Of a DNA stretch of 64,000 nucleotides, positions 8,535 to 55,409 are shown one piece after another. A program made the translations under genes and the position numbers. The stretch comes from a virus (Duplodnaviria > Heunggongvirae > Uroviricota > Caudoviricetes): the IMG/VR virus record IMGVR_UViG_3300033066_001079, positions 13,017 to 77,016 of that record; one strand, written 5' to 3'. Position 1 is the first letter of the stretch; each line of letters begins with the position of its first letter. The notes under the pieces were generated by a model. It saw only the letters and a program-made list of their open reading frames with translations. It had not been told where the DNA came from and did not search any database.

Positions 8535-9894
8535 TAGGGCCTCCGCCTAATGGCTTTGGCTGAGGAGCCGGAGCGGGCGCTGGCTGCTCAGGAGTATCTA
8601 GACTAAAGTAGTTAGAAGATTGCGCTCCCGGGGCGGGCGGCGGAGTTGCTGGCGCTGGAGGAGACGCCGCCGAAGGCGTTCCTTCGCTTGGCGGTTGCTC
8701 GCCTACTCCCGCTCCAAATGGGTCATGATTGAATGTTGGTTCAGCAAGAGTTGGCTGACCGTCAGCAGTATTGGTTGCGCTTGGCGCAGGAGGAATAGTG
8801 CTTCCCATCTCAGGGACATCACCCATTGGCTCTCCTGTATCCATTGAGATATCGCCCTCAGAAGTAGGAAGTTCGCCCATGCCCGGTGCTCCGCTTCCAT
8901 CGCCGCCCATTGGGTCTGTTCCCATTGGGTCTGCTCCCGTCATACCAGATGGGTCTGATTGCTCTGCTGCTCCTTCTAAAGCTGAAGGATCAAATCCTGA
9001 TTGCTCTGCCCAAAGCCTTTCGTCTCCGGCTGTTGGGTCGTTACCATTAAGGAAGTCGGTATCTCGATCTTCAGGCGGGATATTGCCTTCTTGAGGCGGA
9101 ATGGCAGAGGTCTGAGCAATCGTCAAAAGAAACGCTTGCTTGTCTTTGGTTATACCGTTGACAAGATCTGTCTCTTCTGCATTGAGCGCTCTATTTTCTT
9201 TTGCTGCCTGAAGATAGGTATGATAAAGAAGCTTGTCTGCGTCTCTCATAGAAGAAAGAGCCATCTTCAAGGCTTTCTCTCCGCCCTTGAATCCGTGCAT
9301 GGCATCAACTTCTACCTTCTTGCCAAAATTATCTCGATTCTTTTCCGCGCTAGAATGATGAGGAAGACCATCTAGATTGCCAAATCTATCTGGATTGGCC
9401 TGCAACTGACTTCCTCTTTGAGGAACGTTGTTTGGAACCTTGGTAATAGGACCGTCTAGTTGATCGCCAACATACTTATCCCAAAATGCTGTATCTGGAT
9501 CGTTATTAGCCTTAGCAAAAGCGTCTCTGTACTTGCGGTCAAAAGCCTCAGAAAGAGCAGCGGCAGGAGTTACTCCGCCCCTTGTTCCGTCTTCGTGCTG
9601 CCTATGAGGATATAGCTTAGAGTCAGCGTCTCCCAAAGCTCCCTCAATGGTCTTATCATTGTGAGCGGCCTTTTTACGATTCTCGTCTAGCATGGCCTCA
9701 TGCGTAACCGGATTATCAATAGGTCTACGGTCTTCTTCCAATATGCTGTTAAAGTTTGGCACATAGCTCTTATCGCTAAGAGATAGGTTGTACTTTTGAG
9801 CGTGTTGAGGAAGAACGACAGAATGCGGAGATACGCTATCTTTCGCCTTCTGAGATATTTTCTTAAGATTGAAAGCCATTACTATACTCCTCAC
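8515..9894 (-). CDS. hypothetical protein with Pro/Ala-rich N-terminal low-complexity region
   Basis: 459-aa ORF immediately downstream of the terminase. The first ~60 residues are rich in PAPA/PPAP. Confidence 0.55.
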   Translation of the reverse strand: MRSIVMAFNLKKISQKAKDSVSPHSVVLPQHAQKYNLSLSDKSYVPNFNSILEEDRRPIDNPVTHEAMLDENRKKAAHNDKTIEGALGDADSKLYPHRQHEDGTRGGVTPAAALSEAFDRKYRDAFAKANNDPDTAFWDKYVGDQLDGPITKVPNNVPQRGSQLQANPDRFGNLDGLPHHSSAEKNRDNFGKKVEVDAMHGFKGGEKALKMALSSMRDADKLLYHTYLQAAKENRALNAEETDLVNGITKDKQAFLLTIAQTSAIPPQEGNIPPEDRDTDFLNGNDPTAGDERLWAEQSGFDPSALEGAAEQSDPSGMTGADPMGTDPMGGDGSGAPGMGELPTSEGDISMDTGEPMGDVPEMGSTIPPAPSATNTADGQPTLAEPTFNHDPFGAGVGEQPPSEGTPSAASPPAPATPPPAPGAQSSNYFSLDTPEQPAPAPAPQPKPLGGGPSAPPTI

Positions 9895-12800
9895 CTACGT
9901 GGATATGCACTACTTCTTTGTTCGAGTTTTCTTGCAACTTGCCCTCCCGGGCCTTGTCCATATGGCATGCCCGACATGGACCTCCATACTACATCATTCA
10001 TGCCATTAGATACTGGCGAATTTACAAGTTTTCCTTCTACGTACTTGTTCTGACCCTTCTCAATACAGTTATAACAAGCTCCTGCCAAAGCATCGCACAA
10101 ATCGTCAGTTGTTACGTCCCCGTCCTTCTTGGCATATACCTTATAACCGTTGTCAAGCCATTTACGCTGAAGATTCTTCATTTCGTTTTTGAGCAATAGG
10201 TGATGAGGAATCAACAACTTTCTCTGTATGACAAGCTGATATAGGTTATCATAAATAAGCGTCTTGTACTGCTTGGTAAATGGGGTCATTCTTGTAGGAA
10301 TGCCTCTCTTACGTAGTTTTGCAATACTTGTCTGGCTATTGAAATGGTCATAAGTAACAATACCCATGTTGAACTTCGAATTCAAATCGGCAACATACTC
10401 GTCTACTTGCTCTACAGAAATCGGTCGTTCTGGGGCAGGCGACCAGTACATAATGTGATCTACTATGATTCTCCATTCCATCTTCTTGCTACCATCGTGG
10501 TCAAACCAATGTTCTTTATGAGCAAGTATAAGAGCATAGTTGTGGCTAGATGTCGCTGGATCCAAGTGGGCAAAATAAACTTGTCCTCGAACTCCAAATT
10601 TCAACAACTGCAAATCCTTCTCTCGGAAGCAAGCCTCGATATCTTCCTCACTAAAGAAGTTTTCGCCTGCCGTGCCAGAGAACTCCGCTCCAAACTCCAT
10701 GCGGAACTTTTCTTCTGGCATACTAGGGAACGCAGCCATAAGACCCTTCTTAGACTGCATAGGATTAACTTGCCATGTAGCCGCTCGACAAACCAAACGA
10801 TGGTCAACCTCCATGTGATTCTCGAAGAGGTTGTAGAAGATACCTTCCTTGCTTCTAGGAGTTGAAAGACAAATGATCTTACCATCATATATCTTGTCCA
10901 CCTCTTGAATGCCATCAGGTCCAAGAATAGGAAGTCCCATGCTATTTACTTTAGGAACTTGACGAACATATGTCTTTACAGCGGGAGCAAGAGAGTTGAA
11001 TATGGAGTCTCCGGAAGACGAGCCAGCAGTATTCTTGTACAAACCAATCTCGTCCAATAGCAATACATAGCACGAAATACCTACGAGCGTATCTGAGTTA
11101 CTATGCCCTGCTCTAACAACAACAGAACCAAGGCTAGGCTGGAAGCCTTGCTCTACAAGCTCTTTGTTTCTCTTTTTGTCCTCAGGAGTTAGGAAGTGGA
11201 TAGCGTCAGAAGTTACGCCTTCTGGAATAATCTTGTCTCTAAAGTATTCGCTACTTAGAACTTTTTCCTTAATCTGGCGGAAGAGAATCTTCGCCTGCTG
11301 CGCCGAGTTAGCGATGGTCAAAATGGTAAACGGATCAGCCATACCTAGGTTGTAGACAGCATAAGGATTTCCGCCGGGCGTTTCCAATAGCCTCATCGTT
11401 TCATATAGAGCAATGATAGAAGTAAGGAAGTCTTTTCCGCTGTTATGACAAATGAATCCATTGGATACGAAGTTCTGCAAATGCTTCTTGTCAGATACCT
11501 GAATATCATATGTTCGTTTCGTGCCTATTTTTCGCAACTGAGTAATAGGAACAAAAACAGGAGCATCAAGGTCGTTCTCTGATTCGACATTTAGATTTAC
11601 GTCTTGAACCGTGTCGTTCTGTCCAATAAAACCTATCTCGTTGATAAACCTTTTGACATGGCAGTTTTTAGTTACCGACAAGATATGCTCTGGTTTACCA
11701 TTCATGATCTTCGATTGGAACCCGGCAAAAATACCGAATCTTGAAAGAAGATGCTGAACCTGCTTGATAAGCGTTATACTGCTAAAGGAAGCTTCTATCT
11801 TAGAAGTATATCTCGAAGACTTCGACGCCGTAAGAGATCCGTCGCAGCTAAACAAGCATCTCAAGTAAGCCGCAACAACAGTCTTTGGTGCCAAGAAAAT
11901 CTTTGCTGGCACGAATTTTTGCATGCCCGTCTTGTTATGAAGTCCATTATTCTTGAGTATAGTAGCGACGTTTACTACGTTACTCTTTGTAGAAACAGCC
12001 TTAGTTGTAGCAACATATGAGTATTTTCTCTCGTCTATAGACTTCAGATTATAGTTGGTAGCTGCTTCAATCTTCAAGTCCGTGCTGGTAGACTTTAGCT
12101 TGTCCTTGAAGTTGTCAAAGACTTCGCCATCCTTCAAAGTAGTTGCTATATAAGCTCCAACGGAGTCGCAGCACTCGCTGCTTAAATATCCAAGAAGAGA
12201 AGCCTCGTCTTCGGTAATATCTGTTGAACTGCCAAAGAAGGGCTGACAAGCAGCAACGGCAATCTTATCTTTTGGCTTCAAAGACTTTAGCTCAACCCAT
12301 CCCTTATCTGTCAGCATAGGATGATTGTCTGTAACTTCAATTTCATGGCCTGTTGTAGTCTGTATTTGATAAACCTCTCTCACGCCCTGAAATATGAGAT
12401 TACAGTTGTTCATTACCGTCATGGTCTGAGCGGTTTCGTCGTATGTCCATGAATCTAGATTGAGTTTTCCGTAGTTCCAAAGCTCGCCTAAGGTCCAGTT
12501 GCGGCCAGTCTTTACGTCTACTATTTCACAACTCTCAGACAAACAACGTCGGCCCCAAACAAGAACAAGCTCTCTAAAATCATGCCCGGCTTCCCATTTG
12601 TCTATCAAAGCCCCATTCTCGGGAGCATTCAATCCATTCTCGTTTATGAGCAGCTTGTCTGCGTCTGTCAAAACAAGATTTTCATTTCCTTCGCTTCCTC
12701 TGTAAAAGCATTTTAGCGTTAGCTTTTGCAGAGGATAAGGATTGATAGGAGGGTTTAGGAAAGGAAGACCTAGATACTTTTTGTCGTCAATGAACTCGAT

Positions 12801-12920
12801 AATGCTTGGGATCTTAGTGTTATTAACTAGATCTGTTTGAATCTTCGCCCTAAGCTCTCTAAAGAGATCAAAGCTTTTTTCATTCGAGTTGGACTTTTTC
12901 TTTTGCTTGTCAGAAGCCAT
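9891..12920 (-). CDS. terL: terminase large subunit interrupted by an intein
   Basis: ATG start with GAGGT SD. The N-extein ends ...LVLVWGRR and the C-extein begins SGKDFL..., so the spliced product reads GRRSGKD, a Walker-A-like P-loop. The C-extein has a nuclease-like segment (YFAHLDPATSSHNYALILAHKEHW). The mature protein would be about 641 aa. Confidence 0.8.
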   Translation of the reverse strand: MASDKQKKKSNSNEKSFDLFRELRAKIQTDLVNNTKIPSIIEFIDDKKYLGLPFLNPPINPYPLQKLTLKCFYRGSEGNENLVLTDADKLLINENGLNAPENGALIDKWEAGHDFRELVLVWGRRCLSESCEIVDVKTGRNWTLGELWNYGKLNLDSWTYDETAQTMTVMNNCNLIFQGVREVYQIQTTTGHEIEVTDNHPMLTDKGWVELKSLKPKDKIAVAACQPFFGSSTDITEDEASLLGYLSSECCDSVGAYIATTLKDGEVFDNFKDKLKSTSTDLKIEAATNYNLKSIDERKYSYVATTKAVSTKSNVVNVATILKNNGLHNKTGMQKFVPAKIFLAPKTVVAAYLRCLFSCDGSLTASKSSRYTSKIEASFSSITLIKQVQHLLSRFGIFAGFQSKIMNGKPEHILSVTKNCHVKRFINEIGFIGQNDTVQDVNLNVESENDLDAPVFVPITQLRKIGTKRTYDIQVSDKKHLQNFVSNGFICHNSGKDFLTSIIALYETMRLLETPGGNPYAVYNLGMADPFTILTIANSAQQAKILFRQIKEKVLSSEYFRDKIIPEGVTSDAIHFLTPEDKKRNKELVEQGFQPSLGSVVVRAGHSNSDTLVGISCYVLLLDEIGLYKNTAGSSSGDSIFNSLAPAVKTYVRQVPKVNSMGLPILGPDGIQEVDKIYDGKIICLSTPRSKEGIFYNLFENHMEVDHRLVCRAATWQVNPMQSKKGLMAAFPSMPEEKFRMEFGAEFSGTAGENFFSEEDIEACFREKDLQLLKFGVRGQVYFAHLDPATSSHNYALILAHKEHWFDHDGSKKMEWRIIVDHIMYWSPAPERPISVEQVDEYVADLNSKFNMGIVTYDHFNSQTSIAKLRKRGIPTRMTPFTKQYKTLIYDNLYQLVIQRKLLIPHHLLLKNEMKNLQRKWLDNGYKVYAKKDGDVTTDDLCDALAGACYNCIEKGQNKYVEGKLVNSPVSNGMNDVVWRSMSGMPYGQGPGGQVARKLEQRSSAYPRR
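11442..12545 (-). mobile_element. intein with LAGLIDADG homing endonuclease inserted in the terL P-loop
   Basis: Residues 126-493 of the terL ORF. Block A is CLSESCEIVDV, block B is EVTDNHPML and the C-terminal block is NGFICHN followed by Ser+1. Two LAGLIDADG-like motifs are present (LLGYLSSECCDS and AAYLRCLFSCDGS). Confidence 0.75.
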
Positions 12921-36943: not shown

Positions 36944-37383
36944 TGCCCAAAGCCGCTCTTCGTTGCTGCGTTTGCAACTCCAACGCCGCCCTCAAACAAA
37001 CCCACATTTTCTCCCTCGCACTCTGCAAAAAGTGCGACCACGCCTACCTCCTGTCAACGGAAGAAAACCATGACAGGTTTGAAAAAGACGCTCTGAAAAA
37101 ACGGAAGCTATCGCAGTCCCGTCAAGGTGTAATCGAAAACGTATTTGAGTTTTGCTACTGTCCGTTTTGGACCGCTATGGAGCTTTTGCCAAACGCCACA
37201 GAGTTCCATATACAGCTAAACTTTGGTCGATTTGAAGAGTTCCTGCAATCGCAGTATTTCTCTGCAAAGAGCTTTGAAGTCTTCGCTTCCCGACTTCGAC
37301 TTCCATTGTCTACAAAGATAGATACAGTTGGGATAATAGAACTTCAGAAACAATCTTCGCTGTCGTCTTCGAAAATATCCTGA
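36943..37383 (+). CDS. hypothetical Cys4 zinc-ribbon protein
   Basis: The start is re-set to the ATG that overlaps the upstream TAA (TAATG). It has CCVCNS...CKKCDH cysteine pairs. Confidence 0.35.
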   Translation: MPKAALRCCVCNSNAALKQTHIFSLALCKKCDHAYLLSTEENHDRFEKDALKKRKLSQSRQGVIENVFEFCYCPFWTAMELLPNATEFHIQLNFGRFEEFLQSQYFSAKSFEVFASRLRLPLSTKIDTVGIIELQKQSSLSSSKIS

Positions 37384-37691
37384 GGTTCTTCGGCTCTCAG
37401 CACGTACATCTGCTTCCAGTCAACAGTTAATAGATCAGGTCGTTCGTCTACGATATAGTCAAGAACCTTGTCATTGATATACTCCGCCATGTCCTCGCAG
37501 TTCATAAGACAAGAGCATGTTGATATAGGCGCTCGTCTGCCTAGAAAATACTGAAAAACAAGGTTCTGAACGGCTGAAGCCCTTTCAATGCCAACAAGAG
37601 ATTGTCCCTTTTGGTCAAGAAAGAAGTCTCGCAACCGTACTAAACAAACTACAAATGCCTCTTCCCATTGACTCTTGGTTCTTTTTTCCAT
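37344..37691 (-). CDS. hypothetical protein (shortened from the 256-aa ORF)
   Basis: The start is re-set to ATG 37691, which has GGGAGGAG 9 nt upstream. The ORF-track N-terminal half is Cys/Arg/Trp-rich and antisense to the plus-strand gene 37779..38285, so it is judged non-coding. Confidence 0.45.
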   Translation of the reverse strand: MEKRTKSQWEEAFVVCLVRLRDFFLDQKGQSLVGIERASAVQNLVFQYFLGRRAPISTCSCLMNCEDMAEYINDKVLDYIVDERPDLLTVDWKQMYVLRAEEPQDIFEDDSEDCF

Positions 37692-38285: not shown

Positions 38286-38571
38286 GCCTAGGTAGCTCGT
38301 CAATAAATAGCAGTTTTCTGCCAACCGCTTGATATTCAAGCGATCTTCTTATTGGCTCTACCATAGACGCAGCAAGAGCGTTCCTGCCCTCTTCTGTTTC
38401 AAGAGCTATTGAAATAATCCGTTCTTTATCAGCGTCCGTCAAAGGCTTTTTAGCAACTTTGACAGGTTCGACTTTAGGCGTTAGTAATGAGCCGACCTTG
38501 GAGATGATCAAACTCGTGCTGGAAACAGCGAGCAGACAACCTAGAAAGGTTCTTCTTGAAAGTTTTGCCAT
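38272..38571 (-). CDS. small protein with twin-arginine (Tat) signal peptide
   Basis: N-terminus MAKLSRRTFLGCLLAVSSTSLIIS contains the S-R-R-x-F-L-G Tat motif followed by a hydrophobic core. ATG with GAGG upstream. It overlaps the 3' end of def by 98 nt in another frame. Confidence 0.4.
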   Translation of the reverse strand: MAKLSRRTFLGCLLAVSSTSLIISKVGSLLTPKVEPVKVAKKPLTDADKERIISIALETEEGRNALAASMVEPIRRSLEYQAVGRKLLFIDELPRPKQY

Positions 38572-38917
38572 CTAATCCCTTTGCCTCAATAGAAATGTTC
38601 TTGAAACGGCGAACATTCTTCTTCACACCCGGTATCGACAAACAGCCCTCTTCTTCCACTTCGCTTCCAGAAGTGTGAAGGATTTTCGGGTTGATGTAGA
38701 CTTGGGGCAGAGGCATCTCATTAGGGATATACATTACAAACATCTGAACAGATAGGCCTACCTGAGGAGCAGCAAGTCCTATTCCGTTGTTTTCGAGCAT
38801 GATCTGAATCATGCGATCTGCTATCAACTTTGTCTGGTCAGTAATCTCTACAGGGATAGCAACCTGCTTGAGTACATCAGAGGGAGCAATAACAAGAGTT
38901 AGATCTTTTGGACTCAT
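38474..38917 (-). CDS. def: peptide deformylase
   Basis: Motifs GIGLAAPQVG, EGCLSIPG and QHEFDHLQG. The start is re-set to the ATG at 38917 (MSPKDL...), which forms an ATGA overlap with the upstream stop. Confidence 0.75.
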   Translation of the reverse strand: MSPKDLTLVIAPSDVLKQVAIPVEITDQTKLIADRMIQIMLENNGIGLAAPQVGLSVQMFVMYIPNEMPLPQVYINPKILHTSGSEVEEEGCLSIPGVKKNVRRFKNISIEAKGLDGKTFKKNLSRLSARCFQHEFDHLQGRLITNA

Positions 38918-39343: not shown

Positions 39344-40040
39344 TGTAATCTCCTTGTATAATCTCTTATAGCGATTTTTTGTTGAAAAACCTTGATCGAC
39401 AAAAGCAGGTTCCGATTAACTATAAACCTATTTTTTCATTGTCGAAGGGTCGAAGCTGCCTAAAGGTGTTTTATGCTCGCCAAGCCTCGCACCAAACACC
39501 TCGATAGAATCTCGCAAAGCCGTCGATTCTATCGTTGCATTAAGTATATATTCCATTCTGTGAATGGAATCTTGCGAGTTGGCCTTTTGCCCTCTTCGAT
39601 TGCGCTTAAGGGCGCTGCGCGTACCCTTTCAGCCTCCTACGCAACAAGAGTTGAGTAAAGATTAGGGAGGCTGAATCCGCAGTAACCTGCGTTGTTAGAT
39701 TGGTCTTTTGAGGTCGGTGTTAATATCTAACTCTCATTGGCAGTCAGACCGTCTCTGTTCGCCCATCCAGCGGATGAAATAGGGGCAAAGCCCGCTGGAC
39801 AGCTAGCCGTTTCCTTACGGAAGGGCAGAGAATACGCTAAAGAGGCCATTCTCTTAGCTGTATACCGCTCTTTATGGAGCGTTTAGCGTCTCCTCAACAA
39901 AGGTCAGAGACTTAGCCTAATCAAGTATAATGGCTTGAATTCCATTCAAGGCTGATCGCTAAGCCCTAATAGCAGGGCGATAGCTGTTTACACCACGTAG
40001 GGCTATCGGTACTGCAAATAGATTCAACCATGAATGCACC
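39344..40040. other. ~700-nt ORF-poor, hairpin-dense intergenic region (candidate structured ncRNA and/or regulatory hub)
   Basis: No credible ORF is present (only a 61-aa plus-strand ORF). It carries multiple perfect inverted repeats (CGATAGAATC/GATTCTATCG, TCAGCCTCC/GGAGGCTGA, CTTGAAT/ATTCAAG, CCAGCGG/CCGCTGG, TCCATTC/GAATGGA). The sequences ATTCCATTC and CGATAG recur. Confidence 0.3.
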
Positions 40041-40067
40041 AAAGAAAAAGCCCCGCTCGGGCGGGGC
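40041..40067 (-). terminator. rho-independent terminator after the acidic-protein gene
   Basis: On the minus strand the hairpin GCCCCGC-CCGA-GCGGGGC is followed by TTTTTCTTT. It lies immediately 3' of the stop at 40074. Confidence 0.7.
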
Positions 40068-40073
40068 TGAGTT

Positions 40074-40256
40074 TCAAAACTCGTCGTCCTCTTCATCATC
40101 TTCATCAAAATCGTCGTCGTCTTCGAAGTCATCATCGTCTTCGAATTCGTCCTCATCAAACTCATCATCTTCCAACTCGTCGTCCTCTTCATCCAGTTCC
40201 TTGAGATCTGGATCTTCTTTTTCTAGCTCATCCTCGTCGTCATCGTACTTGCCCAT
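40074..40256 (-). CDS. hyper-acidic 60-aa protein (DNA-mimic candidate)
   Basis: MGKYDDDEDELEKEDPDLKELDEEDDELEDDEFDEDEFEDDDDFEDDDDFDEDDEEDDEF. The protein is more than 70% Asp/Glu and has its own terminator. Confidence 0.55.
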   Translation of the reverse strand: MGKYDDDEDELEKEDPDLKELDEEDDELEDDEFDEDEFEDDDDFEDDDDFDEDDEEDDEF

Positions 40257-40267
40257 CGATGTTCTCC

Positions 40268-41008
40268 TTACACAAAGCGTTGTCGTTGAAGACTGAACTG
40301 TTCCTTATGAATGTTATCAAGAGCGATATCATTCAAATGCTCAAAGTGAGACGTTCTAAAAATCCGGTTCTTCTTAAGTTCAAGGAATCCTTCCCAGAAA
40401 TGAAGCCTTCCGGTCGCAAACTGCTCGTCCGTAAAGTTCTTGAACTCGTCTCGTACCTTTCGGGTATTTTCAAAGAACTTCTCAACCGGCGTTGATGCAA
40501 GACCCAAGAGGTCAATATCAACAATCAGTTGACCTTCATAATCGTCTGCGGGAGGGTTATACTTGTGCTTCGTATACATGACGAGATCCCAAACTCGTCC
40601 TGCTCGCTCACCTGCCCATCCCATTTGAAGAAGATCAATCAATGCAAGATCGGCGCTAGCTCGCTCATTATCGAAGCTCTTGTCGCCAACTCTGTAATAT
40701 GCGTCATGATAGAGCCAAGCAACCAGAACGCTATTTACTAAGCATTCGCAATGAGGTTCAATCTTTCGCAGAGCGTCAACGCCATCCCTGATATGATCAA
40801 AGTTGTGATAATTGCGAGGAATGGGTACTGAGTCGGCCCCCATAGCCACAGGCTGGTCGTAATGCTCCCTCAATCGTGTCCAAAATGATGTCGTATCAAC
40901 AAGGTCGTCCAAAGCAAAACCATTGTTGATCGCTCTGTCATAGATGTACTTGAAGTCCATTGAATGATCAAAGCGAGGAGGAGCCTTTGGTGGAACAACA
41001 ATGTTCAT
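40268..41008 (-). CDS. HD-domain metal-dependent phosphohydrolase-like protein
   Basis: YHNFDHIRDG...LYHDAYY gives an H...HD...D arrangement. The start is re-set to the ATG at 41008 (MNIVVPP), which forms an ATGA overlap with the coaD-like stop. Confidence 0.5.
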   Translation of the reverse strand: MNIVVPPKAPPRFDHSMDFKYIYDRAINNGFALDDLVDTTSFWTRLREHYDQPVAMGADSVPIPRNYHNFDHIRDGVDALRKIEPHCECLVNSVLVAWLYHDAYYRVGDKSFDNERASADLALIDLLQMGWAGERAGRVWDLVMYTKHKYNPPADDYEGQLIVDIDLLGLASTPVEKFFENTRKVRDEFKNFTDEQFATGRLHFWEGFLELKKNRIFRTSHFEHLNDIALDNIHKEQFSLQRQRFV

Positions 41009-41505
41009 TGAGGGGTTCCTTTTGCCATCATGCACATAGCGACATATTCAGGAACGTACTTCCGAATTTCTTCTACAGATCTCTCGTATCCCATCAGTCC
41101 TTTTACAAAGCTACTGGATACCTCTGCAAGATCAGTAGGAGGAACAAGGAAGAGCGTTTGAATGTCAGGAGCCATGCGGCTATTGATATTCTTGAAAGTT
41201 AGTTCGTATGCAAAATCGCCAGCATTTCGCACTCCACGCACGATGTAGTTGGCATTATTGGCTTTGGCGAAATCAACCAGATAAACCATGCCCATAACTG
41301 CAACTCGGCAGTTTCTATGGACATTGACTGCATTTGCCATTCGAACCCGTTCTATTTCGCTGAAGAGGTACTTCTTGGACGGGTTAACGCCTACTGCGAT
41401 AATGACTTCATCGAAAAGCTTTGCTGCCTCTCGAATTACCCACAGATGCCCATTAGTAATGGGGTCAAGGCTTGCGGCAAAGACAGCGCGGCGAATATCG
41501 CTCAT
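41005..41505 (-). CDS. coaD: phosphopantetheine adenylyltransferase-like nucleotidyltransferase
   Basis: LDPITNGH (PPAT H/TxGH motif) and IVRGVRNAGDFAYE (PPAT RGLR..DFEYE motif). The start is set to the ATG at 41505 (MSDIRR). The ORF-track start at 41583 is TTG. Confidence 0.65.
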   Translation of the reverse strand: MSDIRRAVFAASLDPITNGHLWVIREAAKLFDEVIIAVGVNPSKKYLFSEIERVRMANAVNVHRNCRVAVMGMVYLVDFAKANNANYIVRGVRNAGDFAYELTFKNINSRMAPDIQTLFLVPPTDLAEVSSSFVKGLMGYERSVEEIRKYVPEYVAMCMMAKGTPQ

Positions 41506-41539: not shown

Positions 41540-42496
41540 CTAGAACGAAGGCTCGTCTTCGTCAGAGGTTTCCAGCAGGTCAAATCGGTGCTGGTACGCC
41601 ACTACGCTTGCGTCAATAGCGTTTCCCGGTAGCTCCGTAATTTGAGCTACAATCTTGACTGCCAAGCAACCTGTCAAAGTCCGGAAAGCCTCTGACAGCC
41701 ATCGAATCCTCTGATTGACTTCTTGTATAGAAGAAAAGCGAATGGTTCTGAGCTTGAAGACGCTTCCCTTGTCATTCTCTTTGGTATTGACGTATTGATT
41801 ACTGCTAGGTCCGTCATAATGATGAGCAGCGAAGTCCTCGCTCTCATGGCATAGGATTAAAACATCCTTCGAAGTGATAGATACAGGGACTACTCTTTCT
41901 TCAAAAGGCAAAAGCTCCTGCTTATCAATGACAACGCAGTTGGTGTCCTCTTGGAAGTTTCCGATCTCTCTACTCAAAATATCCCAAGCGTCGTCTGGTC
42001 TATGAGCGACCGTCATGCGCTGCATAGTCCGCAATCGCAGCTTATGGATCTTTGCGTCTTTGAGGAAGAGATTCGTGCCTCCAATTGCAAAGAATCTCTT
42101 ACCCTGAGGGTCGATATGCCGAAAGACGTAAACCCTTATGTGTCTAGGGTTTAGAGTCGAGTGATTCCCAAAAGTTACAACAAACTTAGAGATGCGATAG
42201 ATAAGCTCTTCCTTAGTACCGCATTCAGCAAATGGAACCCAAAAACTACCAACAGAACAGTCCTTATGTTCATGGATAGCAACTTTTTTATCTTCCATGA
42301 GGGAAGCGTAGTGGGTTGTATCGAAGTTGATCGCAACAACTTGGAATCCGTCTCCCATAGAATCAACGTCGATAAAACGTCGTTCATATTTGACGTTCTC
42401 TTCCGCGAAATAATCAACTGCTGGCTGCTGAGCAGTCCAATCCAAAAGACCTGCGCTATTCGTTGGTGGGGCTTGGTTCATTTGGGTACCAGACAT
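41540..42496 (-). CDS. hypothetical protein
   Basis: 318-aa ORF with no motif. Confidence 0.5.
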   Translation of the reverse strand: MSGTQMNQAPPTNSAGLLDWTAQQPAVDYFAEENVKYERRFIDVDSMGDGFQVVAINFDTTHYASLMEDKKVAIHEHKDCSVGSFWVPFAECGTKEELIYRISKFVVTFGNHSTLNPRHIRVYVFRHIDPQGKRFFAIGGTNLFLKDAKIHKLRLRTMQRMTVAHRPDDAWDILSREIGNFQEDTNCVVIDKQELLPFEERVVPVSITSKDVLILCHESEDFAAHHYDGPSSNQYVNTKENDKGSVFKLRTIRFSSIQEVNQRIRWLSEAFRTLTGCLAVKIVAQITELPGNAIDASVVAYQHRFDLLETSDEDEPSF

Positions 42497-43040: not shown

Positions 43041-44051
43041 TCAATCGACTAGGAGTTGGCCCTTGATAACAGGGATATCGAATAGACAGTCCTCTCCGTA
43101 CTTCTCTCTCACGTAGTCAATGATGATTCCACTATGAGTAGTCACAATAAACTGCTTATCGGGGAAGGCGTCATGCAGTTTATCGATCATCTTCTTGTGT
43201 CGCTTGAAATACACATGCATTTCAATATTGTCTATCATGACGATATCACTTCTATCGATCATTGTAGGATCGCATAGACTTCTCAATAGAGTGGCAATCT
43301 TCTTTTCTCCGGCGCTCATGGATTTGTGATGAACCCGAACGTCGCCCTTTTCAATGACAAAATCCTGATAGAATGCGTTTTCGCCTTTTTCTACGCCTTC
43401 TGTTATTACGTCGTAAACGGCAGACCGAGACATTCCCGGGTCTACCTTGTTCTTTCGAACTGCGTCTATGTTGTCTGCATATGCCTTTAGCGCTCCGCTG
43501 AGGGCCTTGTTGCCAGCTTCAACGCCAGACGCAGAAACAGCCTTCTCTACAAAGCATTCATAGCCATAGATTGTGCGAGCTAGGTCTAAGAAAAGCTCTA
43601 TTCTCTCAGCAGGAATCTGGAACTTGTTCATATTGATAGGATGATCTGCGTCAATGTATACGCAATTATCAAACCCTCGATCAACCAAGTCGTTTCGAAT
43701 AACTTCGTCGTCCTTGATATGAACAATCAGGTCTCTCTTGCCATCCCAAAAGTTACCGATTATTTCCATCTCGTCAGAATACTTGGTAAAGCCCTGATAG
43801 TTTGGATCATAATCTGGATGGAATTGCATCTTACGAAGCAATAGATTCGTTTCGGTAGGATCTCTTTTCGCATATGCCTTGGCTCTGCATAGAACTGCAA
43901 TAGCGTTGAGCCCCGTACTCTTTCCGCAACCATTAGGACCAAAGAAGACGTTCAATGATTTGAAATCACCATTGTCTTTGGTGAAGATAAACTTGTTCTC
44001 GCCCTTGAAACCCGCATAGTTTTTTAGAACCAACGACTTAGCCTTAAGCAT
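43041..44051 (-). CDS. ABC/RecF/SMC-like ATPase (AAA_21-type)
   Basis: Walker A is FFGPNGCGKST, the signature-like motif is MSAGEKK, Walker B is IVMIDNIE and the H-loop is VTTHS. The start is re-set to ATG 44051, which has CTCAGGAGGTTTTT upstream. The ORF-track start at 44072 is TTG. Confidence 0.7.
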   Translation of the reverse strand: MLKAKSLVLKNYAGFKGENKFIFTKDNGDFKSLNVFFGPNGCGKSTGLNAIAVLCRAKAYAKRDPTETNLLLRKMQFHPDYDPNYQGFTKYSDEMEIIGNFWDGKRDLIVHIKDDEVIRNDLVDRGFDNCVYIDADHPINMNKFQIPAERIELFLDLARTIYGYECFVEKAVSASGVEAGNKALSGALKAYADNIDAVRKNKVDPGMSRSAVYDVITEGVEKGENAFYQDFVIEKGDVRVHHKSMSAGEKKIATLLRSLCDPTMIDRSDIVMIDNIEMHVYFKRHKKMIDKLHDAFPDKQFIVTTHSGIIIDYVREKYGEDCLFDIPVIKGQLLVD

Positions 44052-44118
44052 AAAAACCTCCTGAGTTGCCAATCTTACATCGGCTAACGCAGGAGGTTGG
44101 AGAAAGGTTAGTCTTATT

Positions 44119-53641: not shown

Positions 53642-53693
53642 CAACCGGCGGCTGAGATAAGAAGGAGGGGACTCCTTCCTATGGAGCTTGAAC

Positions 53694-55409
53694 TTAGCCC
53701 TTCGTCCCGTTCAGGACGGGCTTGGCCGCAGCGGTAGTAGCCGCAGCAGGCTTGCGCTCGCCATTCAGGTCAATGCCAAGCTTGCCAACCTCGTCGGCGG
53801 TCTTCAAGCCAGCCCCGCTACCCGTGGCATTCATGGCGTGAAGAGCGTTGACCATTGCCTGACCAACAGCATGCTCCGCAAGCTGCTTGAGAATGGGCGG
53901 AAGGTTGGTGCCGCTCGTCGCAGCGACCGCCTTGCCGATACCCGCTCCAAGGCAAGCCATGCTGACTTCCAAAGCGGAAGGTCCGTCGCCGGTCTTCGCT
54001 CCGTTGAGCAGAAGCATGTGAGGCTCCATGCCCTTCATAGCGACGATGAGATCGTCAGACGTAACCTGACCAGTGAGGTCGTCCGTTCGTGCCAGAGTCG
54101 CAATCTTGCTGCGCTCAACGCACTCGCGGATGGTCGCCGGGATCTGACCAGTAAGGAACTCAGCCGCAGGCTCGATGTCGCAGCCCTCAGCAAGCAGGTC
54201 GCCGCCGTAGAGACGAATCAGACGCTCAGCCGCCTGCTTGTCGGGAGGCAGAACAGGGATAACCGTGTCGATACGGCCCGGACGGAGGAAAGCCTTGTTG
54301 ATGTTCTCAGCATGGTTGGTGGTGAGAATCGTGATGATTTCCTTGTCCTTGTAGTCAACGCCGTCGATGATGTTGAGAACTTCGTTGAGCTTCGGGTCGC
54401 GAGGCCCGTTCGTCGCCATGTCAACGTCCTCAGCGAAGATAACGCAGGGAGCGTAGAGCTTGGCGAACTTGAAGGCGAGCGGGAGGTCGCGAACGTCGTT
54501 GAGGTAGAGGAACGTGAACCCGTTGTCCTCGCAGAGCTTCGCCGTGACGTAGGCCGTCAACGTCTTGCCGCAGCCGTAAGGCCCCGTCAACAGAACGCCG
54601 CGCTTGAGGGGGATACCGAACTTGCGGCAGAGCCTCGCCTTCTTGATGGGAGCGAAGAGGCCGACGTTCAGGAGGTTCTTGATCTCGTCACCAAAGATCA
54701 ACTGCTCTTCGCTGATCTTCGAAACGTCGATGAAGCGAGGAGAGTCAACCTGCCAGTCGAAGGGGCGCTGATCCCGAATCCAATTGAAGTGGACGCGAAT
54801 CGCCTTGCCCTTGTAGATGCTGTGCTTGCGGAGATTGTGTTCGGTCTTCGCCGCAATGTCCGCAACCAGCTTCTCGTTCTTCTTCTTGATCTCGCCCTGA
54901 ATGTAGAAGCGAGGCTCGGTTCCTTCGGGAGGCATGCCGGTTTCGAGGCGACCGTCAATGCCGAACAGCTTGATGCTGCCCCAAGGCACCTGAACCTTCT
55001 CGTTCACACCCGTCTCAACGGTAACGAGAACAGGAGGCTTCGGAGAATCGAAGAAGCTCTTCGGGGGAGTCTTCGTGCCGATGGGGTGGCCGAACATCTC
55101 GCAGACCGCACGATGGAACGCAATCGCTCCGTCCATCGGGAAGCAGTCAAACTGGTGGTGAACGCCGCAGGTAGCGTTCTCCTCGTCGCGAATCTGATGG
55201 AGGAAAGCAATGCCTTCGTCCGTCGTCATGTCGCGAGGATCGGAAGGAAGAACAATCTTCCTGCCTGAGCGCTCAAGAATCACATCCTTGAACAGAACTT
55301 GCGAGTCATCCTCCTCTCCGTTCACATTCTTCTTGCTAATCGCTTTCGTCGGTGCGTTGGGGGTCGCCATGCGTCTTCCTATCTCATAGAACTCTTGTCT
55401 CGCTACCAT
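53694..55409 (-). CDS. AAA+ ATPase of anomalously high GC content
   Basis: Walker A is LLTGPYGCGKT, Walker B is VIFAEDVDM and sensor-2 is RPGRID. Sampled 60-nt blocks are about 58% GC, against about 38-45% in flanking genes. The antisense ORF at 53688..55268 and the nested minus-strand ORFs are artefacts of the GC bias. Confidence 0.8.
   Translation of the reverse strand: MVARQEFYEIGRRMATPNAPTKAISKKNVNGEEDDSQVLFKDVILERSGRKIVLPSDPRDMTTDEGIAFLHQIRDEENATCGVHHQFDCFPMDGAIAFHRAVCEMFGHPIGTKTPPKSFFDSPKPPVLVTVETGVNEKVQVPWGSIKLFGIDGRLETGMPPEGTEPRFYIQGEIKKKNEKLVADIAAKTEHNLRKHSIYKGKAIRVHFNWIRDQRPFDWQVDSPRFIDVSKISEEQLIFGDEIKNLLNVGLFAPIKKARLCRKFGIPLKRGVLLTGPYGCGKTLTAYVTAKLCEDNGFTFLYLNDVRDLPLAFKFAKLYAPCVIFAEDVDMATNGPRDPKLNEVLNIIDGVDYKDKEIITILTTNHAENINKAFLRPGRIDTVIPVLPPDKQAAERLIRLYGGDLLAEGCDIEPAAEFLTGQIPATIRECVERSKIATLARTDDLTGQVTSDDLIVAMKGMEPHMLLLNGAKTGDGPSALEVSMACLGAGIGKAVAATSGTNLPPILKQLAEHAVGQAMVNALHAMNATGSGAGLKTADEVGKLGIDLNGERKPAAATTAAAKPVLNGTKG

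What the first reader, a model, noticed from the sequence alone, without database searches (positions are those of the whole stretch)
40038..40260. 60-aa hyper-acidic protein with dedicated terminator: DNA-mimic/anti-restriction candidate
The protein is more than 70% Asp/Glu, arranged as DDxE/DDFE repeats. Its charge density is comparable to Ocr/ArdA-type DNA mimics. It is followed immediately by a perfect GC hairpin plus T-run terminator (40041..40067). It is the first gene after a ~700-nt non-coding region, which is consistent with an early, independently expressed anti-defence gene.
Basis: partly seen in the sequence, partly recalled or inferred. Interest (0 to 1): 0.55.

Follow-up and report, generated by a model that had tools for sequence, protein, structure and literature searches.

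The report
Hyperacidic disordered protein of giant phages
A real 60-residue gene that is three-quarters Asp/Glu is kept, in composition but not in sequence, at the same spot in a small clade of uncultured giant phages; it is probably a floppy polyanion that decoys basic protein surfaces, and it closes an operon just upstream of a previously undescribed ~660-nt structured RNA.

Summary
The ORF is real. It lies at window 40074..40256 on the minus strand: 60 aa, 44 D/E, net charge -41. It has a perfect AAGGAG ribosome-binding site and is followed by the strongest terminator in 19 kb.

HMMER finds no homologues. Synteny shows six distinct hyperacidic ORFs (50-68 aa, 58-74% D/E, 10-12 hydrophobic residues) directly after the same HD-phosphohydrolase gene in related giant-phage contigs of up to 334 kb. 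One lineage lost the ORF and keeps a remnant.

AlphaFold predicts no structure. The protein is not Ocr/ArdA-like: Ocr is a folded 116-aa dimer with 29% D/E.

This is the last cistron of a tightly packed operon, not an independently expressed first gene. The "700-nt non-coding region" lies downstream and is a conserved structured RNA: 44 covarying pairs, no Rfam match.

Best reading (about 0.4): a disordered polyanionic decoy, working like the acidic domain of SPO1 Gp44 or like SSB/T7 gp2.5 acidic tails. Two neighbouring proteins also end in an acidic run plus an aromatic residue.

Main rival (about 0.15): a cis-acting D/E-rich ORF whose translation gates read-through into the RNA.

All functions are inferred. 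Nothing here tests anti-restriction.

The parts
40074..40256 (-). Hyperacidic ORF: 60 aa, 73% D/E, net charge -41, ending ...EEDDEF. Stop codon TGA at 40076..40074.
   Evidence: The same product was called by the gene finder on an independent Logan contig. Syntenic hyperacidic ORFs occur in six lineages. Predicted disordered.
40264..40269 (-). Shine-Dalgarno AAGGAG, 7 nt before the ATG. It overlaps the TAA stop codon (40270..40268) of the upstream HD gene.
   Evidence: Sequence. A perfect AAGGAG 6-8 nt before the ATG is present in all seven syntenic ORFs.
40039..40068 (-). Intrinsic-terminator-like hairpin (stem 40068..40049, 8 bp with 7 G-C, loop CGAG) plus T-run. It starts 5 nt after the stop codon.
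   Evidence: A G+C-rich hairpin plus T-run with compensatory stem changes is present in six of seven lineages. It is absent together with the ORF in L005.
39383..40043 (-). Conserved structured RNA candidate of about 660 nt. It begins at TTTGGTG, right at the end of the terminator T-run, and ends before the ribosome-binding site of the next gene.
   Evidence: Alignments A5 and A7. Of its cells, 87.6% are paired, against about 42% for slid controls. There are 44 pairs with double changes, and 0/500 shuffles reach that. G-U 34 against A-C 4 favours the minus strand. Indels are 132 frame-breaking against 24 in-frame. There is no Rfam, tRNA or tmRNA hit. There is one copy per locus.
40268..41008 (-). 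HD-superfamily phosphohydrolase gene (246 aa), immediately upstream. It was the synteny anchor used to find relatives.
   Evidence: phrog_19425 at 1.5e-22. Homologues P0001-P0006 have 47-100% identity. Loci.
41005..41505 (-). Phage-encoded pantetheine-phosphate adenylyltransferase (CoaD), same operon.
   Evidence: TIGR01510 equivalog, 156.9 bits against a cut-off of 103.3. PF01467.
41540..42496 (-). 318-aa protein of unknown function in the same operon. Its C-terminus is an acidic run ending in Phe (...ETSDEDEPSF).
   Evidence: Homologues end ...EEDEEETAF...REDEETDF and ...REDEEVDF. L005, the lineage without the acidic ORF, ends ...NENDDDEA.
37344..37691 (-). 115-aa protein of unknown function with an acidic C-terminal tail ending in an aromatic residue (...FEDDSEDCF).
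   Evidence: Homologues end ...NEDDKENY and ...DGDNEEEW. The gene call comes from L001.

Best explanation
The ORF is translated into a standalone, intrinsically disordered polyanion: about 60 aa, roughly three-quarters Asp/Glu, with 10-12 interspersed F/L/I/Y residues. It is made as the last cistron of an auxiliary-gene operon of an uncultured giant phage.

It acts in trans as an electrostatic decoy. It occupies basic surfaces that normally hold single-stranded nucleic acid or the acidic, aromatic-tipped C-terminal tails of other proteins. This is how the disordered acidic domain of SPO1 Gp44 and the SSB/T7 gp2.5 tails work.

**Shown:** the gene is real, it is selected for composition rather than sequence, it is predicted disordered, and it is co-transcribed with the HD gene and followed by a terminator.

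**Inferred:** that the protein is stable, that it binds anything, and what it binds. The target could be a host nucleic-acid-binding or defence protein, or the phage's own docking site for acidic tails.
For: **The gene is real and translated**
- It has a perfect AAGGAG site and an ATG in all seven syntenic copies.
- It was called independently on a Logan contig.
- Between the close relatives L004 and L012 the changes are three synonymous substitutions, one F-to-L change and one in-frame 3-nt indel.

**Selection acts on composition**
- There are six distinct lineages of 50-68 aa with 58-74% D/E. K/R residues are few (1-3) and lie mostly at the N-terminus. Each has at most 1 Pro and a near-constant 10-12 hydrophobic residues.
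- Pairwise identity stays near 40% even where the adjacent HD protein is 82% identical (L011 against L002) or the adjacent RNA is 84% identical (L011 against L018).

**Disorder**
- AlphaFold2 gives pLDDT 59, pTM 0.19 and no secondary structure.

**Precedents**
- SPO1 Gp44 residues 56-122 are 57% D/E with no basic residue. They are disordered, behave like ssDNA and bind RNA polymerase beta/beta' (PMC8208478).
- The acidic tail of T7 gp2.5, with its essential C-terminal Phe, docks on a basic patch of T7 DNA polymerase (PMC12339929). It also competes with ssDNA for the same binding surface (title of reference 31 in PMC10359462).

**A local acidic-tail theme**
- Four of six lineages end in an acidic run plus F, L or I: ..EEDDEF, ..DDDDDEF, ..DDDDDDDL, ..DDEDDDDI.
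- Two neighbouring protein families also end in an acidic run plus F, Y or W, in 8 of 9 sequences.
Against: - There is no experimental or interaction evidence of any kind.
- No partner was identified. No strongly basic genuine ORF lies in the window.
- The C-terminal hydrophobic residue is missing in two lineages (..GDDEDE..FLDTDE).
- One lineage (L005) has lost the gene, so it is dispensable there.
- D/E runs that start at codon 5 are the context reported to abort translation in bacteria (10.1101/2021.02.02.429294). Efficient synthesis of the full-length protein is therefore not guaranteed.
- Conservation of composition alone fits the cis-acting rival equally well.
Confidence: 0.4

Rival explanations
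1. The ORF is a cis-acting translational sensor. The D/E-rich nascent chain destabilises the ribosome (intrinsic ribosome destabilisation, as in MgtL).

Whether a ribosome reaches the stop codon, 5-6 nt before the hairpin, would decide whether the terminator forms. That in turn would decide how much transcription reads through into the ~660-nt RNA and the peptide-deformylase genes. On this reading the peptide itself is a by-product.
For: - The D/E run starts at residue 5, the N-terminal context reported to cause translation abortion. MgtL uses this effect to sense Mg2+ (10.1101/2021.02.02.429294).
- The stop codon is 5-6 nt from the hairpin stem in four of six lineages.
- The conserved RNA starts at the end of the T-run, which leaves no room for its own promoter.
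- L005 lacks the ORF and the hairpin together, and there the RNA directly follows the HD gene.
- Only composition is conserved, not sequence.
Against: - 50-68 codons is far longer than a leader of this kind needs.
- The stop-to-hairpin distance is 12-16 nt in L002 and L013, beyond the reach of a terminating ribosome.
- No alternative anti-terminator pairing is possible within GAN-only codons (read directly from the sequence).
- The constant number of hydrophobic residues and the recurrent acidic-run-plus-hydrophobic C-terminus suggest selection on the product.
- Terminators directly after stop codons are common in compact phage genomes (my own knowledge).
Confidence: 0.15
2. This is the first reader's reading in the strict sense: an Ocr/ArdA-type double-stranded-DNA mimic that blocks type I R-M, BREX or similar DNA-binding defence enzymes early in infection.
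For: The extreme negative charge. Ocr is also very acidic and inhibits type I R-M and BREX (PMC3439906; PMC7261183, listed). A flexible polyanion could still bind some DNA-binding grooves non-specifically.
Against: - No homology to Ocr or ArdA.
- No folded shape that could mimic bent B-DNA.
- Half the length of Ocr.
- It is the last gene of an operon with CoaD and an HD hydrolase, without its own promoter.
- No defence or anti-defence neighbours were recognised. The ATPase neighbour gives only sub-threshold matches: PtuA at 53 bits against a cut-off of 500.
Confidence: 0.1
3. The protein is an accessory to the adjacent HD phosphohydrolase, or a general cation or polyamine (Mg2+, spermidine) buffer or solubility chaperone. 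It would act on metal or counter-ion availability, not on nucleic-acid-binding proteins.
For: - It always sits 11-13 nt after the HD gene and is translationally juxtaposed to it.
- In L005 a remnant of the ORF start (FYDDDE) is fused to the C-terminus of the HD protein.
- HD enzymes depend on metal ions (my own knowledge).
Against: L005 keeps the HD gene without the ORF. No example of such a partner is known to me. Adjacency may simply be inherited synteny.
Confidence: 0.08
4. The ORF is not a functional gene. It would be a chance ORF in a purine-rich spacer, or in the 5' part of the RNA.
For: No detectable homologues by sequence search. Low-complexity sequence. All frames of a (GAN)n tract are stop-poor; for example, the antisense 88-aa poly-Ser ORF at 40030..40296.
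Against: - The acidic frame, ATG, perfect AAGGAG site and downstream terminator are conserved in six lineages whose flanking proteins are only about 50% identical.
- Synonymous codon use is mixed.
- Close relatives differ by an in-frame indel and synonymous changes.
Confidence: 0.04

Closest known systems
Central acidic domain (residues 56-122) of Bacillus phage SPO1 Gp44
   Same: It is phage-encoded, about 65 residues long, more than half Asp/Glu and almost free of basic residues. It is disordered. It is proposed to work as a flexible ssDNA-like polyanion that binds a nucleic-acid-binding enzyme, RNA polymerase beta/beta' (PMC8208478).
   Different: Gp44 is a 27-kDa three-domain protein. Its folded N-terminal domain binds DNA and is needed for activity. 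Here the acidic segment is the whole protein. D/E content is higher (73% against 57%). There is no sequence homology, the target is unknown, and it is not a host-takeover early gene by position.
Acidic C-terminal tails of SSB proteins and T7 gp2.5/gp4 (acidic run plus terminal Phe)
   Same: Both are disordered acidic stretches tipped by a hydrophobic or aromatic C-terminal residue. The tail competes with ssDNA and docks on basic patches of partner proteins (PMC12339929; PMC10359462). The window protein ends EEDDEF and contains four internal acidic-run-plus-F units. Two neighbouring proteins carry similar tails.
   Different: Known tails are appendages of OB-fold or helicase proteins, not free-standing genes. 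The canonical bacterial D-D-D-[IL]-P-F motif (my own knowledge) is absent. Two of six lineages do not end in a hydrophobic residue.
Ocr (T7 gp0.3) and ArdA anti-restriction DNA mimics
   Same: They are small, very acidic proteins of mobile elements that compete with DNA for DNA-binding enzymes.
   Different: Ocr is a folded, curved 116-aa dimer with 34 D/E (29%) placed so as to copy the phosphates of bent B-DNA (PMC3439906). The window protein is half that size, 73% D/E and predicted unstructured. It is not homologous and is not a first or early gene.
MgtL-type leader peptides acting through intrinsic ribosome destabilisation
   Same: Both have an N-terminal D/E(/P)-rich coding sequence whose translation continuity could control a downstream transcription decision (10.1101/2021.02.02.429294). 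A terminator follows directly after the ORF.
   Different: MgtL is 17 aa (my own knowledge) and sits in a 5' leader with alternative RNA structures. This ORF is 50-68 aa, sits at the end of an operon, and has no evident anti-terminator.
Eukaryotic disordered polyanions such as prothymosin-alpha and acidic tails of histone chaperones (my own knowledge, not tested)
   Same: They have about 50% or more D/E and are fully disordered. They bind polycationic nucleic-acid-binding proteins with high affinity and stay disordered when bound.
   Different: They are eukaryotic and unrelated in sequence. No bacterial or phage counterpart as a standalone gene is known to me.

Membership tests
Ocr (T7 gp0.3) DNA mimics | Sequence membership in the Ocr family (Pfam model) | tested here: not met
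   No Pfam-A family at E<=0.01. No PHROG. No homologue by phmmer or hmmsearch.
Ocr (T7 gp0.3) DNA mimics | Folded helical dimer of about 116 aa whose surface carboxylates copy bent B-DNA | tested here: not met
   The protein is 60 aa. AlphaFold2 gives pLDDT 59, pTM 0.19 and no helices or strands. Ocr is described in PMC3439906.
Ocr (T7 gp0.3) DNA mimics | First or early gene with its own promoter | tested here: not met
   It is the last cistron, 11 nt after the HD stop codon. No promoter-like site precedes it. The promoter type of this phage is unknown, so the scan is weak evidence.
Ocr (T7 gp0.3) DNA mimics | Inhibits type I R-M or BREX | not testable with these tools
   This needs plating and binding assays.
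ArdA anti-restriction proteins | ArdA Pfam domain. By my own recollection, also about 165 aa with a three-domain fold. | tested here: not met
   No Pfam hit. The protein is 60 aa and predicted disordered.
Disordered acidic ssDNA mimic (SPO1 Gp44 type) | At least about 55% D/E, almost no basic residues, predicted or measured disorder over about 60 residues | tested here: met
   73% D/E with 3 K (residues 3, 13, 19). No predicted structure. Compare Gp44 residues 56-122.
Disordered acidic ssDNA mimic (SPO1 Gp44 type) | Homology to Gp44, or the flanking folded DNA-binding domain | tested here: not met
   It is a standalone ORF with no homologues.
Disordered acidic ssDNA mimic (SPO1 Gp44 type) | Binds RNA polymerase or another nucleic-acid-binding enzyme | not testable with these tools
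   No interaction data are available.
SSB-Ct / T7 gp2.5-type acidic tail | Acidic run ending in a hydrophobic or aromatic C-terminal residue | tested here: inconclusive
   Met in the window (EEDDEF), L004/L012 (DDDDDEF), L011 (DDDDDDDL) and L018 (DDEDDDDI). Not met in L002 (GDDEDE) or L013 (FLDTDE).
SSB-Ct / T7 gp2.5-type acidic tail | Canonical bacterial D-D-D-[IL]-P-F tip, attached to an OB-fold protein | tested here: not met
   There is no Pro near the C-terminus and no folded domain. The motif is recalled from my own knowledge.
IRD leader peptide (MgtL type) | D/E(/P)-rich sequence within the first ~10 codons | tested here: met
   The window has MGKYDDDEDE. All lineages turn acidic by residues 5-8.
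IRD leader peptide (MgtL type) | Short ORF placed so that ribosome position decides between alternative RNA structures or termination | tested here: inconclusive
   The stop codon is 5-6 nt before the terminator in four lineages and 12-16 nt in two. No anti-terminator alternative was found. The ORF is 50-68 codons long.
IRD leader peptide (MgtL type) | Mg2+- or ribosome-stability-dependent translation abortion | not testable with these tools
   This needs PURE-system and reporter assays.

The most novel reading that the evidence does not exclude
The acidic ORF, the terminator and the ~660-nt RNA would form one module. Translation of a D/E-rich, ribosome-destabilising ORF would gate read-through into a new class of large structured phage RNA and the peptide-deformylase genes behind it.

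The peptide, if released, would double as a free-standing concatemer of "acidic run + Phe" tails. It would compete with the acid-tailed 318-aa and 115-aa phage proteins for a common docking site.

Either half alone would be without described precedent in phages, as far as I know.
Probability: 0.12. Interest if true: 0.8.

Novelty: new variant of a known kind. Interest (0 to 1): 0.55.

Why it matters
If the protein is made and acts in trans, it would be the most extreme and most minimal natural nucleic-acid or acidic-tail mimic described from a phage. It has no fold and no conserved sequence, only charge plus a few hydrophobic residues.

Such genes are invisible to homology searches. HMMER failed to recover even true family members here, so they may be widely overlooked among phage "ORFans". 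This one shows that they can be found by synteny.

A generic polyanionic decoy could be a broad-spectrum inhibitor of nucleic-acid-binding host or defence proteins.

If it instead acts in cis, it would extend ribosome-destabilisation sensing to a phage operon junction.

Independently of both readings, the adjacent ~660-nt RNA is a well-supported candidate for a new large structured RNA class in giant phages. Few such RNA classes are known.

Tried and rejected
- **Sequence searches for the acidic protein.** A single-sequence search and a 7-sequence profile against 5.8 billion proteins returned nothing. Composition correction hides even true members. Pfam, PHROGs and NCBIfam gave nothing.
- **DNA similarity.** 10 kb around the locus found no match in 50,697 phage records. 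The terminase is at most 26% identical to cultured phages, so there is no cultured relative and no host.
- **First viral-contig scan.** A single HD protein as query found nothing. The HD alignment worked.
- **HD protein and 318-aa family against PDB sequences.** Nothing useful came back. AlphaFold2 of the 318-aa protein without an alignment gave pLDDT 38, which is unusable, so no fold search was run.
- **Known RNA families for the gap.** The Rfam gathering scan gave no matches. The two E-value scans gave only weak matches, with no family recurring in the RNA region of the homologous loci. ARAGORN found no tRNA or tmRNA. By eye I saw no group I, group II, RNase P, GOLLD or ROOL signature. The weak snoRNA and RsmY hits are purine-rich coding sequence and the terminator.
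- **A protein-coding gene hidden in the gap.** Rejected. There is no shared ORF, and indels are 132 frame-breaking against 24 in-frame.
- **RNA on the opposite strand.** Disfavoured, with G-U 34 against A-C 4 in helices common to both strand predictions.
- **A basic partner protein in the window.** None is credible.
- **The antisense 88-aa poly-Ser ORF (40030..40296, plus strand) and the 56-aa His/Arg ORF.** These are by-products of a (GAN)n tract, with no ribosome-binding site or terminator logic.
- **CsrA-sponge idea for the GGA-rich mRNA.** Considered, but the GGA triplets follow from Glu-Asp codon pairs. Not pursued.
- **RNA 24-mer in 185,579 GTDB genomes.** No match. A relaxed pattern in viral contigs returned the same five contigs.
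Full report
**1. The observation**

The minus strand of the window carries an ATG ORF at 40074..40256. It encodes MGKYDDDEDELEKEDPDLKELDEEDDELEDDEFDEDEFEDDDDFEDDDDFDEDDEEDDEF.
- It has 26 Asp and 18 Glu (73.3%), 3 Lys, 5 Phe and net charge -41.
- No other stretch in any frame of the 64-kb window reaches 50% D/E over 30 residues.
- Its charge per residue (-0.68) is far outside the range of all other ORFs; the next is -0.09.
- Codon use is mixed (GAT 14, GAC 12, GAA 10, GAG 8). Only a weak 18-nt periodicity is present, 2.9 copies at 77% match. The composition is therefore not a simple DNA repeat.
- A perfect AAGGAG lies 7 nt before the ATG and overlaps the TAA of the upstream gene.
- Five nucleotides after the TGA comes an 8-bp hairpin (7 G-C) and a T-run on the same strand. 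The 51-nt stretch around it folds at -18.3 kcal/mol. It is the strongest terminator-like site in 19 kb.

These parts of the finding are confirmed.

**2.

Because the gene is on the minus strand, the ~700-nt gene-free stretch (39344..40040) is downstream of it, not upstream.

The ORF is the last cistron of a tightly packed block. All junctions overlap or are at most 11 nt. The block contains:
- an AAA/SMC-like ATPase (43041..44072);
- a 191-aa protein;
- a 318-aa protein;
- a true CoaD equivalog (TIGR01510, 156.9 bits against a cut-off of 103.3);
- an HD-superfamily phosphohydrolase (phrog_19425, 1.5e-22);
- the acidic ORF.

No sigma-70-like promoter precedes the ORF, although the promoter type of this phage is unknown. 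"First gene after the gap, early and independently expressed" is therefore not supported.

**3. Where the window comes from**

The window encodes a large terminase, a ribonucleotide reductase, an SNF2-type helicase, a peptide deformylase and many ORFans, almost all on one strand. It has no DNA match among 50,697 phage records. Its terminase is at most 26% identical to any cultured phage. Related contigs reach 248, 257 and 334 kb. It is an uncultured giant phage of unknown host.

**4. Is the acidic ORF conserved?**

Sequence searches are blind to it. A single-sequence search and a seven-sequence profile against 5.8 billion proteins both returned nothing.

Synteny is not blind. I used the adjacent HD protein as an anchor; six homologues have 47-100% identity. 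With it I fetched related loci. Directly after the HD gene there is a hyperacidic ORF in six distinct lineages:

| Lineage | Length | C-terminus | Note |
|---|---|---|---|
| window | 60 aa | ..EEDDEF | |
| L011 | 50 aa | ..DDDDDDDL | N-terminus MANYDDDEDMLEDDYPD, against MGKYDDDEDELEKEDPD in the window |
| L018 | 53 aa | ..DDEDDDDI | |
| L002 | 50 aa | ..GDDEDE | |
| L004/L012 | 68/67 aa | ..DDDDDEF | |
| L013 | 52 aa | ..FLDTDE | |

All copies share these features:
- a perfect AAGGAG 6-8 nt before the ATG;
- 58-74% D/E;
- 1-3 basic residues, mostly at the N-terminus;
- at most one Pro;
- 10-12 hydrophobic residues regardless of length;
- a G+C-rich hairpin plus T-run after the stop codon.

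Pairwise identity is about 40%, the baseline for two D/E-rich strings. This holds even where the HD protein is 82% identical or the downstream RNA is 84% identical. The close pair L004/L012 differs by three synonymous changes, one F-to-L change and one in-frame 3-nt indel.

One lineage (L005) lacks both the ORF and the hairpin. It keeps a remnant (TATGACGATGACGAG, "YDDDE") fused to the end of its HD gene, which indicates secondary loss.

The gene is therefore real. It is selected for composition rather than sequence, and it is dispensable in at least one lineage.

**5. Physical nature**

AlphaFold2 predicts no secondary structure, with pLDDT 59 and pTM 0.19. This is expected for 73% D/E.

Ocr, by contrast, is a folded curved dimer of 116-aa monomers with 34 D/E (29%) placed to copy DNA phosphates (PMC3439906). 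The window protein cannot be that kind of shape mimic. It fails every testable membership criterion for Ocr and ArdA.

**6. How it most likely works**

The nearest working analogue is the central domain of SPO1 Gp44. That domain has 67 residues, 57% D/E and no basic residue. It is disordered, ssDNA-like and binds RNA polymerase beta/beta' (PMC8208478).

A second analogue is the acidic tail of SSB-type proteins. The tail of T7 gp2.5, with its essential C-terminal Phe, docks on a basic patch of the DNA polymerase (PMC12339929) and competes with ssDNA (reference title in PMC10359462).

Three local observations fit the second analogue:
- The window protein reads like a concatemer of such tails (EDDEF-DEDEF-EDDDDF-EDDDDF-...-EEDDEF).
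- Four of six lineages end in an acidic run plus F, L or I.
- Two neighbouring protein families of unknown function also end in an acidic run plus an aromatic residue. The 318-aa operon member ends ..SDEDEPSF..EEDEEETAF..REDEETDF or ..REDEEVDF. The 115-aa protein ends ..EDDSEDCF..EDDKENY or ..GDNEEEW. The only exception..NENDDDEA, is in L005, the lineage that also lost the acidic ORF.

I therefore favour a disordered polyanionic decoy for basic surfaces that bind nucleic acid or acidic tails (confidence about 0.4). What is shown is that the gene is real, composition-selected, predicted disordered and placed at the end of its operon before a terminator. Stability, binding and target are inferred.

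**7. The main rival**

D/E-rich sequences at the very start of an ORF destabilise bacterial ribosomes and abort translation. MgtL exploits this to sense Mg2+ (10.1101/2021.02.02.429294).

Evidence for this reading here:
- The acidic run starts at codon 5.
- The stop codon is 5-6 nt from the hairpin in four lineages.
- The conserved downstream RNA begins at the end of the T-run, with no room for its own promoter.
- L005 lost the ORF and the hairpin together.

A ribosome reaching the stop codon could therefore mask the 5' arm of the hairpin and allow read-through.

Evidence against:
- The ORF is 50-68 codons long.
- The spacing is 12-16 nt in two lineages.
- There is no alternative anti-terminator pairing.
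- The constant hydrophobic content suggests selection on the product.

I give it about 0.15. The strict Ocr-type anti-restriction reading gets about 0.1, an HD or cation accessory role about 0.08, and a spurious ORF about 0.04.

**8. The "non-coding region"**

The stretch 39383..40043 (minus strand) is conserved in all nine related loci (alignments A5 and A7). It contains invariant blocks such as TTAACGCCGACCTYAAAAGAYCAA.
- On a 122-pair consensus structure, 87.6% of cells pair, against about 42% when partners are slid.
- 44 pairs show changes on both sides, against 9-19 for slid controls. No shuffle out of 500 reaches the observed values.
- In helices predicted on both strands, G-U outnumbers A-C by 34 to 4 on the operon strand.
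- Indels are 132 frame-breaking against 24 in-frame, and no ORF is shared.
- Rfam gives no credible match to it in three scans, and there is no tRNA or tmRNA.
- There is one copy per locus. Its 24-mer signature occurs in five IMG/VR contigs and in no GTDB genome.

This is a strong candidate for a new large structured RNA of giant phages. It always lies between the acidic-ORF terminator and the peptide-deformylase genes. Its function is unknown.

**9. Novelty and verdict**

It is wrong about the family and about the expression logic.

I found no described family of free-standing, fully disordered proteins with about 60-75% D/E in phages. The search was limited: a literature search for "hyperacidic" with "phage" gave nothing relevant. 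I rate the finding a new variant of a known kind, the acidic nucleic-acid or tail mimics. Interest is 0.55, raised by the conservation and by the adjacent new RNA, and limited by the absence of any functional evidence.

Noticed in passing
window 39383..40043 (minus strand); also L002 5989-6649, L004 5996-6612, L005 5782-6398, L011 3186-3851, L012 3950-4556, L013 3897-4562, L016 38-652, L018 2973-3639 (minus strand): A conserved structured RNA candidate of about 660 nt with no Rfam match. 87.6% of cells pair against about 42% in slid controls, 44 covarying pairs, G-U 34 against A-C 4 favouring the operon strand, and frame-breaking indels. It always lies between the acidic-ORF terminator and the peptide-deformylase genes of a giant-phage clade.
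   Followed up: partly
window 41540..42496 (-) and 37344..37691 (-); homologues in L002, L004, L005, L012: Two proteins of unknown function end in a short acidic run plus an aromatic residue (..SDEDEPSF, ..EDDSEDCF; homologues end in F, F, F, Y and W). This recalls SSB and T7 gp2.5/gp4 tails. The only exception (..DDDEA) is in L005, the lineage without the acidic ORF. AlphaFold2 of the 318-aa protein was unusable (pLDDT 38).
   Followed up: partly
L005 5730-5790: The HD gene of this lineage ends ..EPFYDDDECQAPS. The DNA TATGACGATGACGAG matches the start of the window's acidic ORF (TACGATGACGACGAG). This looks like a remnant left by deletion of the acidic ORF and its terminator.
   Followed up: yes
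window 41005..41505 (-), 38474..38917 (-); L001 12249-13764: The phage carries a true CoaD (pantetheine-phosphate adenylyltransferase) equivalog, a peptide deformylase, ThyX and an RNase T-like exonuclease. This is an unusual auxiliary metabolic set. A phage-encoded CoaD may deserve its own look.
   Followed up: no
window 9891..12920 (-): The large terminase ORF is 1009 aa, but only residues ~434-562 and ~753-961 match terminase families. That leaves an unexplained N-terminal extension of about 430 residues and an internal gap, possibly an insertion or an intein.
   Followed up: no
window 53688..55409: Two long ORFs overlap almost completely on opposite strands (526 aa on the plus strand, 571 aa on the minus strand). 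They lie in the one segment with raised G+C (0.53 against about 0.45). Only one can be real, and the composition suggests a repetitive or foreign gene.
   Followed up: no
L004 2033-2797: A 254-aa ORF with a faint LAGLIDADG hit is inserted between the ATPase and the next operon gene in this lineage only. It may be a homing endonuclease.
   Followed up: no
window 40030..40296 (+) and 40034..40204 (+): There is an 88-aa poly-Ser ORF and a 56-aa His/Arg-rich ORF antisense to the acidic gene. They are mechanical by-products of a (GAN)n coding tract and could mislead gene callers.
   Followed up: yes
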